Assembly (NCBI GenBank): GCA_000165345.1
Contig: CM000430.1
Span: 32,001 to 96,000 of the forward strand
Length of the DNA: 64,000 nt
Direction of reading: 5' to 3'
Shown: piece after piece, positions 1-54,000 of the stretch
How positions within the stretch are numbered: the first letter of the stretch is position 1
Layout: each line of letters starts with the position of its first letter
Position numbers: made by a program

Positions 1-3000
1 GAGGTCTACCAAATAGAATGATATTTTTGATACTTCCGTTAGGAATCCAAGGTATCTGAGATGCATAAGCTATAGGACTTTTAGTTTCTCTTGGTTGAAC
101 ATAAGTTAATCCAGTTTCTTGAACAATTTCATCTAATACAGCATTCATTAAAGAAGTTTTTCCACTTCCTGGTGATCCAACAACAATAATAGTTTCCCCA
201 AGAGATAATGATAAGTTAATATTCTTTAATTTAAATCTTGTATCAGAGTTATTTAAAACAGAAGTTGTACTGAATTCATAATTTCGATTAAGTAGATGAG
301 TATGTTCATTAGCTGTATCATTATTATACTTATTCCTTTTACGTGTTTCTTTATTCCAAGTATATGATGAATTTCTCATAACAACAACATCCTTACTGGT
401 TATATCTTTTAGATTGGCTAGATGATTACCTTTATTGCTAGTAGTATATCTTGAATAGATATTTGAATTTGTATGATGATCAAAATTCCCAATAATAGAA
501 TCTTCTGGAGCTTCTTTATCAGAGATAGATGATAAGGTTTGATATCTAAGGGAAAAAAGTCTTGTAGAATCAGGAGAACTTGTGTTTTCTCTATCATCAG
601 TAATTAGTCTAGAATTTGCAATATTTCTGGTATCATCAAGAGAATTGGCGCCAGAATTGTGCATGCATGCACGTTCAATAGGAGTAGGGGTTTTTGTATT
701 AGGTGAAAGATCATGGAAATTATTGGATGTAATGGAGTGTGAATAACAATGTCTGAGATCAAGAGGTCTAGATCTAAGAAATGATTGGAATCTATTAAAT
801 GAAATGAGTGCTTCAATAGTGGCAAAAGAATACATGGATAAATTTCTGCAAGGACCAAGTAAGGAGAACAATACTTTTAGAGTAGTAACTCCAACAGAGG
901 CTGGAATAACGAGAGGGACATTATGTTCCCTAGAGTATTGAATTCCTTTATATACTGCAAGTAAGAATAGAACAAGTTGAGCAATTCCAGACATTTGATA
1001 TCCAATCCAATTACCAACTAAAGATAATGTATTACGAATTTTGTTAGCTTTCATTTCAACTTGTCTACATTTCATGACTCTATCAGTAGCAATATTTTGA
1101 TACCCCATCATTTGTAAAGTTCTGACTTCACTAAGAACTTCATGGCATCTATCAATACGTTTATCTCTAGCTGACATGAAAGGTGCTTTATAAGTTGATG
1201 CAATAATTTGGCATGTAAATGATATGATTAAGAATACAATTAATGTAAAGATTCCAACAATGGTTGTAGAGGATCCAAGAGAATCTTTGAGTACAAAATA
1301 TGCAATAATAAGTCTCAAAGGGAAAATAAAGCATTCAATTGCATTAATAAGGAATCCCTCAACAGCTAATGTATCAACAACGATAAGATTAAATACATTT
1401 GATGATATAACAGCCTCACTGTCTTGGATTCCTCTAGACTCTGCATGACGTAGAATAATGGATTTTCGTGCAGATTTTCCAATAGCAGATTCTTCAAATG
1501 ATATTGCAGAAGTCTTCCAATGGACAACTCTTCTAAAAGTCATAGAAATTAATGAAGCTTGTATTCTTAAGCTAACTCTTCCACACCAATAACTATATTG
1601 AGTTTCCACAAGTATTTTGAGTAACGTAAGTACAATAAATACACTTCCCATATAGTAGTTGTTTTTGTTATTATTAAGATTATTTTTATTTGAGGAATCA
1701 GGTTCTAAGCTTGAAACAAAACTTCTCAATGATAATGTAGCTAATGTTTGCAAAACATCAAAAAAGACTTTCAAGAGTAGAACCATAAGGCATTGAAACC
1801 AAAAAACCTTAATTAAAGGCTTGTATATTCTTAAACCTTTTCCTTTAAGTTTACTGATTCTTTCTTCTTGATTGACAGCCTTTTCTAAATAATTAGTCCA
1901 TATTGGAATGTCATCATTTGCAGGTAGACGAGGGAGATCATCAGTGTTAACTCCTGGTCCTAAGAACTTAGACATCCAAGGTGACAACCAAGTAAAAAAT
2001 AGCTTACTCCATAGGGTATTACCCCCAGCAAATTCAATATTTTTTTTATTGAATTTCATATCAATATTTCAAAATAAATTAAATTTCAATCAAAACTCCA
2101 ATTCTTTTGTTCTTTATTGAATATTCATTATTCTATTTGATAATTGTGATGTTTATTAATTTGTTGTATTTTGACAAGTATTCAATCTAAAATAACTTCT
2201 AATTAAATAAGATAAAAATCTATGATTAAATTAGCATGTCATTTTAGCTCTAAACAGTGTCTTTGGATAGCTTCTATTGGCTAAGCATATTAAGAGACTA
2301 GTCGATCCTCTTGAGCTTTTTCAACCAAATACTTTAATAACTTTCTTCTACTAGCTAAATAATTTCGAAGCATTGCCCGCCAAAAATATTGACCTAATAC
2401 GCTTTCCACTATCTGGGTATCTACGCGCGCCGTCTACTTTAGACCTATTGTCAGAAATTTACTAGGAATAATATAATGATTAATAGATCAGATACTTAAA
2501 GGAGTAGGAAATTTTTTAAAGAATTTATTTCTATTAATTTATTTGTTATTAAAGGGCAAAAATATGGTGTATAATTTTAATAAAATAATATGTATTTGTA
2601 TAAATACTAAAAAGATTTGTTAAAATAATAGAATAAATATTAAACGAATTATTAATATGATTACTTTATAATTTTGAAATTTGATATCAGTTCATGTATA
2701 ATTGAACTTTTAATGTTTATTATATGAAAGAAACATTGATGTTATTTTGCTGTATCTATTAAGTACTTTTTATTTTCTTCTTTTTAGATGGGGTATAAAA
2801 TTTAATCAAGAATATTTTTCTAATAAGAGCAAAAAAAAGTCTGAATACTTATGATTAGTAAACTCTATATTTCTAATCTCTCACATTTCAACCCAATTTT
2901 TTACCCAATATAGCTAACTAAATATTCATCTACAGCTCTAGAAATAAATTAAAATAAACCTATTCAAATTGATTAAATTAAACTCTTTCCACATAAATCT

Positions 3001-51000: not shown

Positions 51001-54000
51001 AATTGTTCTCTACACCTTGGCCCCATTAACCAATTTCTTACATCATCTCGACTGAATAAAGTCGGTGGTGGGTATAGAGTTTCAAAATGTCCTGGAGCTG
51101 ATTCATCTTGTTCAATAATTCTTTTTACATCATCAAACATTACTGTATTAAATTTTGTCTGTTTATCAAATGGTGCCTTTGAAAGTGCTTGGCAAACAGT
51201 TTCTGCTTGGAATGAATTCGAAAATGTCAATATAGCAACTCCTTTTGTGCTTCCATCTACATCCTGAGGTACATCAAGTAAAAAATTTTCGTCATACTCC
51301 ACTCTCATCATTTTAAGGGTTTGATTAATAATTGTTCTAAGAGCTTTAAGAAATCTCTCATATTTATCTGAGCCAATACATGGAAGTCCGAAAATAACAA
51401 AGCTTTTAGAAAATGAGTCTGATAAAGTCAGTGGTTCTTCTATTGTATTACATCTCTTGGAAATATATTCTTCAGTTTCCTCCCCATCATATGTGGAGTC
51501 ACTTAAATACTCCAAAAGATCAATATCTTCACCTAATTCTTCACGAGTAACTTTAAACATAATTCATATGCATATATTTCCCTCTTCAATTCTAGAAGTT
51601 ACTAATAGTTAGAGCTTAGATTATTCTAGTATATAAGTGTATTTTATATACCCAAGTATTAGAACCAGAGTATATTTCAAACTTTTTAATAAATCTTCTT
51701 TCCAAAAAAAAAGAAAGCAAGGCTTTATGTCAAATTTTTTTCCTATTAAATTACGTCTCATAAAGTTAGTTTTAAATATTAAACAATATACTTAATAAAA
51801 TGGCGCCTAAACACAAATATTTTTGTAGTAAATACAAAAAAAAAAAAATAAATAGCAAATTAATATTTAAAGAAGAAAAACAAGTCATATTTCTTCTTAC
51901 TAAAATATTTCTTGTTCATCTAATATAAATTACCATATTGATTGAGTTACACTTTAAAGGGAAATATCGATCTATTCTGATAAATTCATATTTATATGAG
52001 GTTAAATTTAGTGATTTAGGATTAATCAGTTCGATGACTCGATATACTGTGTGAAATATGTGCTTTATTAGAGTGAACTAATGCTTATTCTAAAGGGAAA
52101 ATAGTATTTAATGTGAATAAATTATATGTAAATAATCAAACTTAATAATAAAAAAAAATTGTATGAATTTTTGGTATATATATGTATATTTTTCTCACAG
52201 ACTTGATATGTTAGATCACTCAGCAACTCTAGCTAATAAAATTTCTGCTGCTTCTGAGACATCTCTGTTGTTGCTTTTGGTAAGAATTTGTAGTTTCTCA
52301 ACGACTCCACATTTTCGAATAGCGCGTGTATATTCCAATAATTCTTCGTTTTGGTCAATAATTAGATCTTCAATATGATACACTGCTTCCAAGGGAGTAT
52401 ACCAACTTTCTGGCTTATCAACATTTTTTGTAGGGGGATTGAGAAGACTTACTAATACTGTAATTCCACCAAGTCTCATAAATTCTTTTCTCTGATTAAG
52501 TCCTAATATGAAGATATTTCTAGCTGTTTGTGCGGAAGCTGCTCTAAGTCCATCTATTTCGCTTGACATACATTTTACTAAGTATGGAAGCACCCCGCAA
52601 TCAAACATGACGTTACAACATTCAACGTTGTTAACACTTAGAAATGAAAGCGCTACAATTGCACCATCAATTCTATCTTCTTCTTTGCTTTTAAGTAACT
52701 CTAATAGACCTTGAATTCCACCTTTCTTTCTAATTTCATCTTTGAGTTCTGGCTGGCTGTCTCTTGCAGCGAGAATTGCCAATTGAGTTGCAGCTAATGC
52801 TCCAACAGTTTTAGGATCAGCTGCCCAAGGATGCATTGGTTCATCTAATTTATCAATTGGTTGGGTTGAAGATAAAAGGTTAATAAATTCTTGTATATCA
52901 TTTTTATCATATGCTAAATCAAACCTGGAAATATCATCTCCTAAAGCTTCACTTCTATTCATCTTTTCTTGGGCTAACTTCTTTGCCTCCTCACTTTCTC
53001 TTCCAGAACAGCATCCTGACGAAAGAGTACTACCCATTTTATTGCTATTTGTCTAGATACTTATGTTATTAATTAAGGAAGAATTTTTGATTATAGAAAA
53101 AATCAATCTGATCACAATATAATATGCCTTTATTCTCTGTAAATGTGTTATTAATGAAAATAAATATGATCTTGGAGTACAAAGATGAAAATATGTATGC
53201 ACAGCGTGATTTTAAGGGAAAAATGACCAATTTTATTATCCTTGTACTAAAATATTATTATTGCAACAATAATAATGTTAATAATGGTCTAAGTTATATT
53301 TAATATCTTTATATTTACCTTTGCTATTATTTACTATTATCTCTTCCAATTTACACATATAACATTTTTTTCTTTTACATGGTAACTTTGCCCGATGCGT
53401 CACGTCTACTGCCCGTGCATGCAGGTAAAATATTCTTGTGAAGATGGAAAAATGAAATGAAAAAGTAAATAAATAATTAATAAAAAATAAAAATGGAGGG
53501 TCAATAAATATTGTAATTGCATCTATTTGTTTCTAGCATTGTAATATGTATAATTATTGAATTATAAAATAGAAAATTCTTTCTTTATTTGAATCTTCAG
53601 ATCATGTATACTGTCATTATTCCATAAAACTTTATCTGCCAGTTCACACTTTGTTTTCAGGCTCATTTGTGAATCAATCATATTTTCTGCTAAAGTTTGA
53701 GTACAAGAATCTCTATCCATTAAATATTTGATCTGCTGTTCTCTATTTGCCGATACTACATATATTGGTGAGCAAATCCATGTGAAAACTTTGCTTTCAA
53801 AAAGTAGAGGAGATACAAGGATAGTTTTAACATTTTGAAATCTTGTTAGCAAAACAAAAACCCTGAAATAAAAAATCTCATATAAAGTTGCAGCAAAAAT
53901 TCTGGGATGTGTAATCATGTTCAATTTCTTTCTTTTAAGTGGATCTTCAAAAATTATTGATCTTAGAAGTTTCCTATTCAAACTACCATCTTGGTTTACT

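What the first reader, a model, noticed from the sequence alone, without database searches (positions are those of the whole stretch)
2375..51807. GGCGCC/GGCGGG E2F-like boxes, frequently palindromic or in inverted pairs, upstream of nearly every gene in the housekeeping block and absent from the secreted array
In a ~30% GC background, short GC boxes occur almost exclusively in intergenic 5' regions at these positions.
- 2375-2386 GCCCGCCAAAAA
- 2423-2432 ACGCGCGCCG
- 7411-7420 TTGGCGCCAC
- 9581-9610 GGGCGCCACATCCCGCAATTTAGGCGGGAT
- 13686-13705 GCCGCCTAAATTGGGCGGGC
- 15671-15700 TTTAGGCGGCACTATTTTGGCGCCCAATTT
- 19657-19670 AATTGGCGCCAATT (perfect palindrome)
- 20101-20114 ATGGCGCCAAAATG
- 22086-22108 CCGGCGCCAAAAGTTTGGGCGCC
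- 27581-27600 GGCGCCAAGTTAAGGCGGGC
- 29550-29563 CCCGCCTTAGGCGG
- 29765-29775 GAGGCGCCAAC
- 30955-30966 TTGGGCGGCAAA
- 32954-33000 inverted repeat
- 33191-33202 GGCGCCAAAAGG
- 35414-35419 GGCGCC
- 35651-35656 GGCGCC
- 39796-39852 GCCCGCCAAAAC box plus TTTCGCGGGAAAA
- 42591-42597 GCCCGCT
- 44641-44653 TTTTGGCGGCAAA
- 49097-49102 GGCGCC
- 51802-51807 GGCGCC
Most have the TTTGGCGCC / GGCGCCAAA shape of E2F/DP sites, a motif class reported as over-represented upstream of Cryptosporidium genes. Many sit in divergent promoters serving two genes, often ribosomal-protein or translation genes. The six secreted-family genes at 56-64 kb have none. The palindromic, paired geometry suggests dimeric factor binding and bidirectional promoter use.
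Basis: partly seen in the sequence, partly recalled or inferred. Interest (0 to 1): 0.55.

Follow-up and report, generated by a model that had tools for sequence, protein, structure and literature searches.

The report
Known E2F-type promoter boxes in Cryptosporidium
The short GC-rich boxes are real, strongly non-random and evolutionarily conserved promoter elements of Cryptosporidium parvum housekeeping genes, but they are the E2F-like motif that has been described as the commonest upstream motif of this parasite since 2003-2013, so the finding is correct and not new.

Summary
The window is Cryptosporidium parvum chromosome 2, about 7-71 kb from one end. All 22 listed boxes exist; two are off by 1 nt. 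GGCGSS/SSCGCC occurs 33 times in non-coding DNA against 0.7 expected, and 3 times in coding DNA against 2.0 expected. Other GC hexamers are absent.

With an annotation-based gene model:
- 32 boxes lie in 18 of the 21 intergenic regions that contain a promoter.
- None lies in the 8 convergent (3'-3') spacers.
- None lies in the 6.1 kb between the subtelomeric secreted-protein genes.

The consensus is TTT[T/A/G]GGCG[C/G][C/G][A/C]A, the E2F type. Boxes sit a median of 291 nt upstream of the ATG. Pairs 13-15 nt apart are more frequent than chance.

In syntenic loci of five other intestinal species the boxes and pairs sit at the same distances from the ATG and are far better conserved than their flanks. 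Gastric species keep shorter, single boxes.

The literature already describes this motif, its palindromic nature, its abundance at ribosomal-protein genes, in open chromatin and in bidirectional promoters. No direct E2F/DP binding test was found.

The parts
2375..2386 (.). GCCCGCCAAAAA box, 319 nt upstream of the ABC-transporter ATG
   Evidence: identical in C. meleagridis
2424..2431 (.). CGCGCGCC box, 48 nt from the previous one
   Evidence: identical in C. meleagridis
3081..3086 (.). It lies 354 nt past the 3' end of the 240-aa gene and 1024 nt upstream of the ABC-transporter ATG
4703..4708 (.).
7410..7420 (.). TTTTGGCGCCAC box in the divergent DEAD-helicase / RPL29 promoter
7766..7771 (.).
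9582..9608 (.). Cluster GGCGCC + TCCCGC + GGCGGG in the divergent RPLP2 / RAMP4 promoter
11812..11817 (.).
12129..12134 (.).
13686..13704 (.). Inverted pair GCCGCC-N7-GGCGGG (13 nt start to start) in the divergent Brix / RPS24 promoter
15675..15694 (.). Pair GGCGGC / GGCGCC (14 nt apart) in the divergent BCAS2 / Got1 promoter
17945..17949 (.). Relaxed box CGCGC(TTTTTT), the only E2F-like core upstream of the nucleoplasmin-like gene (246 nt)
19657..19670 (.). Perfect 14-nt palindrome AATTGGCGCCAATT in the divergent G3P-dehydrogenase / YEATS promoter
20101..20114 (.). ATGGCGCCAAAATG box, 262 nt upstream of YEATS
22086..22108 (.). Inverted pair GGCGCCAAAAGTTTGGGCGCC (15 nt apart), 166-181 nt upstream of the synaptojanin-like gene
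   Evidence: pair conserved in meleagridis, ubiquitum, canis, felis and ryanae
27581..27599 (.). Pair GGCGCC / GGCGGG (13 nt apart), about 410 nt upstream of the UBC-like gene
29551..29564 (.). Inverted pair CCCGCCTTAGGCGG in the divergent V-ATPase G / 218-aa gene promoter
   Evidence: conserved in five species
29765..29775 (.). GAGGCGCCAAC box, 269 nt upstream of the 218-aa gene
30955..30966 (.). TTGGGCGGCAAA box, 165 nt upstream of eIF3d
   Evidence: GGCGGC, GGCGGT and GGCGGG interchange at the orthologous site
32954..33000 (.). Inverted pair TTCCCGCC-N29-GGCGGGAG, 287-322 nt upstream of RPL15e
   Evidence: both arms conserved
33191..33202 (.). GGCGCCAAAAGG box, 87 nt upstream of RPL15e
35414..35419 (.). 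ATGGCGCCAAAA box in the divergent 391-aa gene / Kelch-MORC promoter
35650..35655 (.).
39796..39852 (.). CCCGCCAAAAC box plus TTTCGCGGGAAAA box 48 nt away, upstream of the nucleoside transporter
42592..42597 (.). Relaxed box GCCCGC in the 184-nt divergent AHSA1 / WD40 promoter
   Evidence: conserved in four intestinal species and aligned with GCGGCGCCC in muris and andersoni
44641..44653 (.). TTTTGGCGGCAAA box, 162 nt upstream of the large signal-peptide protein gene
49097..49102 (.). GGCGCC box, 177 nt upstream of the 51-aa RPL39 gene (- strand, 48767-48922), a gene that a plain ORF scan misses
51802..51807 (.). GGCGCC box, 244 nt upstream of eIF2A
54220..64000 (.). Contrast region: subtelomeric array of five small signal-peptide protein genes. 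There are no strict boxes in the 6.08 kb of spacers between genes, and one GGCGGG at 63670 after the last gene

Best explanation
The boxes are sequence-specific cis-regulatory promoter elements of the E2F type: TTTGGCGCCAAA and TTTGGCGGG(A/C)A. They mark the core promoters of constitutive (housekeeping, translation and ribosomal-protein) genes in Cryptosporidium parvum.

The most likely mechanism is as follows. Heterodimers of the parasite's E2F and DP winged-helix proteins bind the dyad-symmetric GC core. This keeps the AT-rich spacer open and recruits the transcription machinery. Because the core is symmetric and has no orientation preference, one box or an abutting pair can serve both genes of a head-to-head pair. 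Stage-specific subtelomeric secreted-protein genes lack strong boxes and are presumably driven by other factors.

Shown here: motif specificity, restriction to 5' spacers, pairing, absence from 3'-3' spacers and from the array, and purifying selection across species.

Taken from the literature: open chromatin at these motifs, and the presence of two E2F and two DP genes.

Inferred: that E2F/DP is the binding factor, and that it acts as an activator.
For: Specificity.
- About 50-fold enrichment in non-coding DNA only, with other GC hexamers absent.
- These are the top four enriched 6-mers in an unbiased scan.

Promoter restriction.
- 32 boxes in 18 of 21 promoter-containing spacers.
- 0 in 8 convergent spacers (P=0.017).
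- 0 in 6.08 kb of array spacers (P=2e-6).
- Median 291 nt from the ATG, interquartile range 176-369.

E2F shape.
- T-rich 5' flank and A-rich 3' flank.
- 12 exact TTTSSCGC matches, 11 of them intergenic.

Single factor class. GGCGCC, GGCGGC and GGCGGG replace each other at orthologous positions.

DNA-level element.
- No strand preference relative to the gene: in unidirectional spacers, 6 asymmetric boxes point one way and 4 the other (hand count).
- Distal flanks are unrelated, so the boxes are not a repeat family.

Selection.
- In five other intestinal species, whose spacers range from 24% to 48% GC, the boxes sit at the same distance from the ATG.
- Box columns match in 4.13 of 5 species against 2.66 of 5 for flanking columns (P=4e-23).
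- In C. meleagridis, for the first 20 kb, identity is 96.9% in boxes against 84.5% outside (P=2e-4).
- Gastric species keep SSCGC boxes that are 100% intergenic.

Pairs. Four pairs are 13-15 nt apart (P=0.0007 against uniform placement, 0.008 against a 300-bp-core null), and the pairs are conserved.

Literature.
- PMC3734150: E2F-like motifs 3 and 4.
- PMC4117751: E2F motifs lie upstream of 161 of 200 expression clusters, and the E2F motif is classed with motifs recognised by non-AP2 proteins, not among those bound by AP2 domains on arrays.
- 10.1101/2025.01.17.633476: top motif in ATAC-seq peaks.
- PMC12246861: two E2F and two DP genes.
Against: - No direct binding or mutagenesis data exist for any Cryptosporidium E2F/DP protein or box (review PMC12246861; searches found none).
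- The target set is nearly every housekeeping gene, not the cell-cycle and DNA-replication regulon that defines E2F elsewhere.
- Pocket-protein (Rb) partners are reported absent (PMC3734150).
- E2F transcript profiles do not track ribosomal-protein expression (PMC3734150).
- GGGCGGG also resembles the Sp1/KLF-type GC box.
- Three promoter spacers have no strict box, and one (upstream of the Arm-repeat gene) has not even a relaxed one, so the box is not obligatory.
- Transcription start sites were not available here, so position relative to the start site is unknown.
Confidence: 0.8

Rival explanations
1. The boxes are genuine promoter elements, but a factor other than E2F/DP reads them. Candidates are a C2H2 zinc-finger protein of the Sp1/KLF kind for GGGCGGG, or an uncharacterised GC-box binder.
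For: - GGGCGG(G) occurs in several boxes: 7766, 12129, 13699, 11812.
- No binding experiment ties E2F/DP to the motif (PMC12246861).
- The regulon is atypical for E2F (PMC3734150).
Against: - The commonest form is the dyad GGCGCC with TTT/AAA flanks, which is not an Sp1 site.
- GGCGCC and GGCGGG/GGCGGC interchange at orthologous positions, arguing for one reader with an S-tolerant core.
- The AP2 array study classes the E2F motif with motifs recognised by non-AP2 proteins, not among those bound by AP2 domains (PMC4117751).
- Cryptosporidium is the only apicomplexan genus reported to have both this motif flood and E2F/DP genes (PMC3734150, PMC12246861).
Confidence: 0.12
2. The boxes act mainly through DNA or chromatin structure and need no dedicated sequence-specific activator. 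For example, they could be nucleosome-excluding or boundary elements in AT-rich DNA, or replication-origin marks.
For: - They are isolated GC islands of 6-20 nt in 24% GC spacers.
- They coincide with open chromatin (10.1101/2025.01.17.633476).
- They occur at almost every housekeeping promoter regardless of function.
Against: - Only one family of GC words is enriched, and other GC hexamers are absent.
- The exact core is conserved even in C. canis and C. felis, where the spacers are 46-48% GC and a mere GC island would carry no contrast.
- The flanking T/A preference fits a protein-contact pattern.
Confidence: 0.05
3. The boxes function at the RNA level, as structured elements in 5' UTRs or in the spacers of polycistronic transcripts. 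The palindromes would form hairpins.
For: - Many boxes are palindromic or inverted pairs.
- E2F motifs are reported in the internal spacers of polycistronic transcripts (10.1101/2025.01.17.633476).
Against: - There is no strand bias relative to the downstream gene (hand count).
- The boxes serve divergent gene pairs.
- Most lie 150-400 nt upstream of the ATG.
- Six-nucleotide palindromes give negligible hairpin stability.
- No Rfam family matches in the window.
Confidence: 0.02
4. The pattern is chance or a base-composition artefact.
For: None. The only boxes found inside genes (647, 56429, 61773) are within the chance expectation.
Against: - 33 observed against 0.68 expected, with no shuffle above 4.
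- Cross-species conservation at P=4e-23.
Confidence: 0.01

Closest known systems
C. parvum 'E2F-like' upstream motif family: motif 3 [C/G]GCGC[G/C] / TGGCGCCA and motif 4 GGCGGG of Oberstaller et al. 2013 (PMC3734150). According to that paper it was first noted on chromosome 6 by Bankier et al. 2003.
   Same: Same organism, same words, same upstream location and the same association with ribosomal-protein genes. [quoted passage not shown] Its palindromic form was noted in PMC7840661. The finding is an instance of this family.
   Different: Nothing essential. The work here adds local detail that I did not find in the papers read: zero boxes in convergent spacers, excess of 13-15-nt pairs, position-by-position conservation out to C. 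canis, C. felis and C. ryanae, and shorter single boxes in gastric species.
Canonical E2F/DP sites of animals and plants: TTTSSCGC, the high-affinity palindrome TTTGGCGCCAAA, and TTTCCCGCC/TTTGGCGGG in Arabidopsis as quoted in PMC3734150. Paired or overlapping inverted sites in the adenovirus E2, DHFR and E2F1 promoters are recalled from my own knowledge.
   Same: Core sequence, T/A flanks, dyad symmetry, promoter-proximal position and frequent inverted pairs.
   Different: The target set is almost all housekeeping genes, not a cell-cycle regulon. Rb-family partners are reported absent in apicomplexans. Binding by the parasite proteins is untested.
Sp1/KLF GC box (GGGGCGGGG) of metazoan housekeeping promoters (own knowledge)
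   Same: A GC-rich box at housekeeping promoters, often multiple and orientation-independent. The GGGCGGG variants overlap its core.
   Different: The dominant form here is GGCGCC with TTT/AAA flanks. GGCGCC and GGCGGG interchange at orthologous sites.
ApiAP2-bound promoter motifs of other apicomplexans: the G-box at Plasmodium ribosomal-protein genes and TGCATGCA in Toxoplasma (PMC3734150, PMC4117751)
   Same: Short over-represented upstream motifs that define large regulons, including ribosomal-protein genes.
   Different: Different sequence and a different factor family. The E2F motif is not among the motifs bound by C. parvum AP2 domains on arrays (PMC4117751).

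Membership tests
E2F/DP binding site | Matches the consensus TTTSSCGC with a CG-centred, dyad-symmetric GC core | tested here: met
   The consensus from 32 boxes is TTT[T/A/G]GGCG[C/G][C/G][A/C]A. There are 12 exact TTTSSCGC matches, 11 intergenic, and 23 TTSSCGC matches, 21 intergenic.
E2F/DP binding site | Located in promoter regions, independent of orientation | tested here: met
   32 boxes in 5' spacers, 0 in 8 convergent spacers, 3 in gene spans against about 2 expected in ORFs. 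Asymmetric boxes in unidirectional spacers point 6 one way and 4 the other (hand count).
E2F/DP binding site | Under purifying selection as a functional site | tested here: met
   Box columns match in 4.13 of 5 species against 2.66 of 5 for flanks, P=4e-23. Identity with C. meleagridis is 96.9% against 84.5%. Positions relative to the ATG are conserved.
E2F/DP binding site | Cognate E2F and DP winged-helix proteins are encoded in the same genome | not tested
   The genes lie on other chromosomes, outside the window. The literature lists cgd1_1560 and cgd6_1430 as E2F genes, plus two DP genes (PMC12246861, PMC3734150).
E2F/DP binding site | Direct binding by E2F-DP (EMSA, protein-binding microarray, ChIP) | not testable with these tools
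   No such experiment was found for Cryptosporidium. The review states that most regulatory components lack functional validation.
Canonical E2F regulon (cell-cycle / DNA-replication genes under Rb control) | Targets restricted to cell-cycle and DNA-synthesis genes, with repression through pocket proteins | tested here: not met
   Boxes precede 25-28 of 30 housekeeping genes of all kinds: ribosomal proteins, eIF3d, eIF2A, V-ATPase G, transporters. Rb orthologues are reported absent (PMC3734150).
Bidirectional promoter element | A shared element lies between head-to-head genes and transcription starts in both directions from it | tested here: inconclusive
   7 of 8 divergent spacers carry strict boxes (14 boxes, 2.57 per kb), and the eighth has a conserved relaxed box. 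Start sites and co-expression could not be examined here. RPL29 and RPLP2 fall in the same expression cluster in the supplement of PMC3734150.
Dispersed repeat / mobile-element remnant | Copies share similarity beyond the core | tested here: not met
   The distal 60-nt flanks of boxes are no more alike than random intergenic positions (mean 20.8 against 20.9 matches).

The most novel reading that the evidence does not exclude
The abutting pairs of boxes with a fixed 13-15-nt register (13686, 15675, 22088, 27581) are conserved as pairs from C. parvum to C. canis, C. felis and C. ryanae. They may be a distinct composite element that binds two E2F-DP heterodimers cooperatively, separate from single boxes. 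The gastric lineage (C. muris, C. andersoni, C. serpentis) runs the same promoters on single, shorter SSCGC boxes, or on none at the eIF3d and RPL15e promoters. That would mean a lineage-specific change in how heavily promoters rely on E2F. I found neither point in the papers read, but both rest on one 21-kb syntenic block.
Probability: 0.3. Interest if true: 0.4.

Novelty: already known. Interest (0 to 1): 0.2.

Why it matters
Cryptosporidium is reported as the only apicomplexan genus to retain E2F/DP. This motif appears to control most constitutive promoters, so it is central to understanding, and to engineering, gene expression in a major diarrhoeal pathogen. That significance is already recognised in the literature.

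What this window adds is a clean local demonstration. The boxes are found only where a promoter is expected, never in 3'-3' spacers. They are conserved through large shifts in base composition. Strong boxes are missing from a subtelomeric secreted-protein array. This supports using box presence as a practical promoter marker and a housekeeping-versus-stage-specific marker in annotation and in reporter design.

Tried and rejected
- A plain ATG-ORF gene model mislabelled some spacers, for example the box at 49097 as lying between two 3' ends. It was replaced by annotation-derived models that add RPL29, RAMP4, RPL39, AHSA1 and the intron-containing 5' exons.
- Chance or base composition: rejected.
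- Repeat family: rejected.
- tRNA and Rfam scans of the window found nothing.
- Known AP2-type motifs (TGCATG, G-box, CACACA) do not explain the array either. Only one or two copies occur in its spacers.
- The supplements of the 2025 ATAC-seq and polycistron preprint are not held, so peaks and transcripts for this locus could not be checked.
- Bankier 2003 could not be opened. It is cited only through PMC3734150.
- I ran no further search on retrieving the parasite's E2F/DP sequences, because they lie outside the window and the literature documents them.
- Apparent total absence of boxes in C. serpentis turned out to be an effect of my strict 6-mer definition. Relaxed SSCGC cores are present and conserved in the three gastric species.

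Full report
**Origin of the window.** Proteins encoded in the window are identical to Cryptosporidium parvum Iowa II entries. The eIF3d gene lies on C. parvum chromosome-2 records of about 992 kb. From the record coordinates, the window spans roughly 7-71 kb from one chromosome end, in reverse orientation. Pfam identifies a dense block of housekeeping genes:
- an ABC transporter, a DEAD helicase and a Brix-domain protein;
- RPLP2, RPS24 and RPL15;
- eIF3d and eIF2A;
- V-ATPase G, a nucleoside transporter and others.

This block is followed, from 56 kb, by five small ORFs with N-terminal signal peptides and low-complexity Ser/Pro-rich bodies. Public annotation of the same locus adds genes that a simple ORF scan misses: RPL29, RAMP4, RPL39, AHSA1 and several intron-containing 5' exons. 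I used this refined 35-gene model.

**Check of the observation.** Twenty of the 22 quoted strings are exactly where stated, and two are off by one base.
- GGCGCC occurs 16 times against 0.44 expected.
- GGCGGG/CCCGCC occurs 14 times against 0.95 expected.
- With coding and non-coding DNA shuffled separately, GGCGSS/SSCGCC occurs 33 times in non-coding DNA (24% GC) against 0.68 expected, and no shuffle exceeded 4. It occurs 3 times in ORFs (33% GC) against 2.0 expected.
- Five other GC hexamers do not occur at all.
- In an unbiased scan of all 6-mers against a second-order background, GGCGCC, TGGCGC, GGCGGG and TTGGCG are the four most enriched words in the housekeeping promoter spacers. None of them appears among the enriched words of the array spacers.

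**Where the boxes lie.**
- The 21 spacers of the housekeeping block that must contain at least one promoter (8 divergent, 13 tandem; 14.85 kb) hold 32 strict boxes, in 18 of the 21 spacers.
- The 8 convergent (3'-3') spacers (1.89 kb) hold none (Poisson P=0.017).
- The 6.08 kb between the CoaE gene and the array genes, and among the array genes, holds none (P=2e-6).
- One GGCGGG follows the last array gene, at 63670.

With strict boxes, 25 of 30 housekeeping genes have one in their 5' spacer. Allowing the 5-mer E2F core SSCGC adds the nucleoplasmin-like gene (17945) and the AHSA1/WD40 pair (42592). Only the Arm-repeat and CoaE genes are then left without one.

It aligns with GCGGCGCCC in C. 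muris and C. andersoni.

The array is not completely bare at the relaxed level. It has four weak half-boxes against 0.78 expected, three of them 141-196 nt upstream of array ATGs.

**Anatomy.**
- Oriented boxes give the consensus TTT[T/A/G]GGCG[C/G][C/G][A/C]A.
- Exact TTTSSCGC occurs 12 times, 11 of them intergenic. TGGCGCCA occurs 5 times. AATTGGCGCCAATT at 19657 is a perfect 14-nt palindrome.
- The distance to the nearest downstream ATG has a median of 291 nt, an interquartile range of 176-369 and a range of 87-1024.
- Asymmetric boxes show no preferred orientation relative to the gene (hand count).
- Flanks beyond about 10 nt are unrelated between boxes, so this is not a dispersed repeat.
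- Close pairs are in excess. Four pairs are 13-15 nt apart and one is 21 nt apart. P is about 0.0006 if boxes are placed uniformly within their own spacers, and about 0.008 if they are confined to a 300-nt core.

**Comparative evidence.** I retrieved perfectly syntenic loci around eIF3d, equivalent to window positions of about 21-43 kb.
- Intestinal species: C. meleagridis, C. ubiquitum, C. canis, C. felis and C. ryanae.
- Gastric species: C. serpentis, C. muris and C. andersoni.

In the five intestinal species the boxes recur at nearly the same distance from the ATG. This holds even though spacer GC content ranges from 24% to 48%. Examples:
- about 173-181 nt upstream of the synaptojanin-like gene in four of the five species (about 220-240 nt in C. 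ryanae);
- 136-167 nt upstream of Kelch-MORC in the four species where that box is present;
- 159-170 nt upstream of eIF3d in three species (282 nt in C. ryanae; C. meleagridis carries GGCGGT at the aligned position).

In alignments, box columns match C. parvum in 4.13 of 5 species against 2.66 of 5 for other spacer columns (P=4e-23). The paired arrangements are conserved as pairs. GGCGCC, GGCGGC and GGCGGG substitute for one another at orthologous positions, which argues for a single reader with an S-tolerant core.

For the first 20 kb of the window, a C. meleagridis locus shows 96.9% identity in boxes against 84.5% outside them (P=2e-4).

In the gastric species the strict 6-mer is rare. Single SSCGC boxes (TTGGCGCTAAA, TTCCCGCTTAC, GGGCGCGC) occur at conserved positions. 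They are exclusively intergenic: 11 of 11, 10 of 10 and 4 of 4.

**Mechanism.** The data show a sequence-specific, orientation-independent, selectively maintained DNA element that occurs only where promoters are expected. Its sequence is that of E2F/DP sites.

The literature supplies the remaining links:
- C. parvum encodes two E2F and two DP proteins, and E2F/DP is reported retained in Cryptosporidium alone among apicomplexans (PMC12246861).
- The motif is the top motif in sporozoite ATAC-seq peaks, more than half of which are annotated as bidirectional promoters (10.1101/2025.01.17.633476).
- The AP2 array study classes the E2F motif with motifs recognised by non-AP2 proteins, not among those bound by AP2 domains (PMC4117751).

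The most likely mechanism is therefore that E2F-DP heterodimers bind the dyad core. This opens or marks constitutive promoters, and symmetric boxes or abutting pairs serve both directions. Binding by E2F/DP, and the sign of its effect, remain inferred. No EMSA, microarray, ChIP or mutagenesis study was found.

The system differs from canonical E2F in its near-universal housekeeping target set and in the reported absence of Rb partners (PMC3734150). It works like an E2F site and meets the sequence criteria. It does not fit the classical E2F regulon.

**Comparison with what is known.**
- the motif and its E2F assignment, its over-representation genome-wide and at ribosomal-protein genes (PMC3734150; 161 of 200 expression clusters per PMC4117751);
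- its palindromic nature and the link to bidirectional promoters (PMC7840661);
- its presence in open chromatin (10.1101/2025.01.17.633476);
- similar over-represented upstream motifs across Cryptosporidium genomes, including C. andersoni (PMC5146892).

The earlier comparative test used only C. hominis, at 95% spacer identity (PMC1779779). The deep footprinting, the absence from convergent spacers, the pair-spacing excess and the shorter gastric form are modest extensions. They are not a new finding.

**Verdict.** Interest is low (0.2). The phenomenon is important for the parasite's biology but is well described. The remaining open question, which is who binds the boxes, cannot be advanced from sequence alone.

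Noticed in passing
window 7778, 9526, 13717, 13856, 49151 (also 32962 TGAGACAAGTT): A second motif, GAGACG(A/G)/CGTCTC, occurs 6 times against 0.47 expected in housekeeping promoter spacers. It lies 10-160 nt from E2F-like boxes (mostly within about 60 nt) at ribosomal-protein promoters: RPL29, RPLP2, RPS24 and RPL39. A related, conserved GAGACAAGTT lies at RPL15e. It may correspond to the 'GAGA-like' partner motif reported for ribosomal-protein genes in PMC3734150.
   Followed up: partly
L016 (C. muris), L017 (C. andersoni), L013 (C. serpentis), spacers orthologous to window 21.8-42.7 kb: Gastric-clade species have much shorter spacers and carry at most one short SSCGC box per promoter where C. 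parvum has one to four strict boxes. The eIF3d and RPL15e promoters of C. muris and C. andersoni have none. This is one syntenic block only.
   Followed up: partly
window 56205-63373: The five array proteins (155-261 aa) share a signal peptide followed by a short [SF][FIL]L[KNQ][LI][KR] motif. Three of them have a Cys cluster after it, and most have long Ser runs. Only the last two show detectable pairwise similarity by BLASTP. There are five ORFs, not six. Three exact sequences are absent from the protein collection, which suggests strain-variable genes.
   Followed up: partly
window 56064, 57760, 62603, 63671: Weak E2F-like half-boxes (GCCGC, CCCGC, GGCGGG) occur in the array spacers. Three lie 141-196 nt upstream of array-gene ATGs. 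There are 4 sites against 0.78 expected (P about 0.007), so the array is free of strong boxes only.
   Followed up: partly
window 54220-56204: A 2-kb spacer of about 19% GC separates the housekeeping block from the array. It has no ORF of 90 aa or more, no tRNA, no Rfam match and no strict box. It is the longest spacer in the window.
   Followed up: partly
window 645-654: A full TTGGCGCCAG box lies inside the ABC-transporter coding sequence. It is the only GGCGCC in coding DNA. It could be chance (0.34 expected) or an internal or antisense promoter.
   Followed up: no
window 3081-3086 and 12129-12134: Two conserved boxes lie nearer to the 3' end of the neighbouring gene (354 and about 130 nt) than to any ATG (1024 and 674 nt). 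They are candidates for antisense or lncRNA promoters of the kind described in PMC7840661.
   Followed up: no
window 27567-27586: An AP2_1-type AGCATGCAAAT lies immediately 5' of the box pair at 27581. It is retained in C. meleagridis and, with one mismatch (ACATGC), in C. ubiquitum. TGCATG is itself enriched in housekeeping spacers (8 against 1.6 expected).
   Followed up: partly
L014 (C. canis), L005 (C. felis): The syntenic loci of C. canis and C. felis are about 50% GC overall, with spacers of 46-48% GC, against 31% and 25% in C. parvum. Gene order, spacer lengths and box positions are nevertheless preserved.
   Followed up: partly
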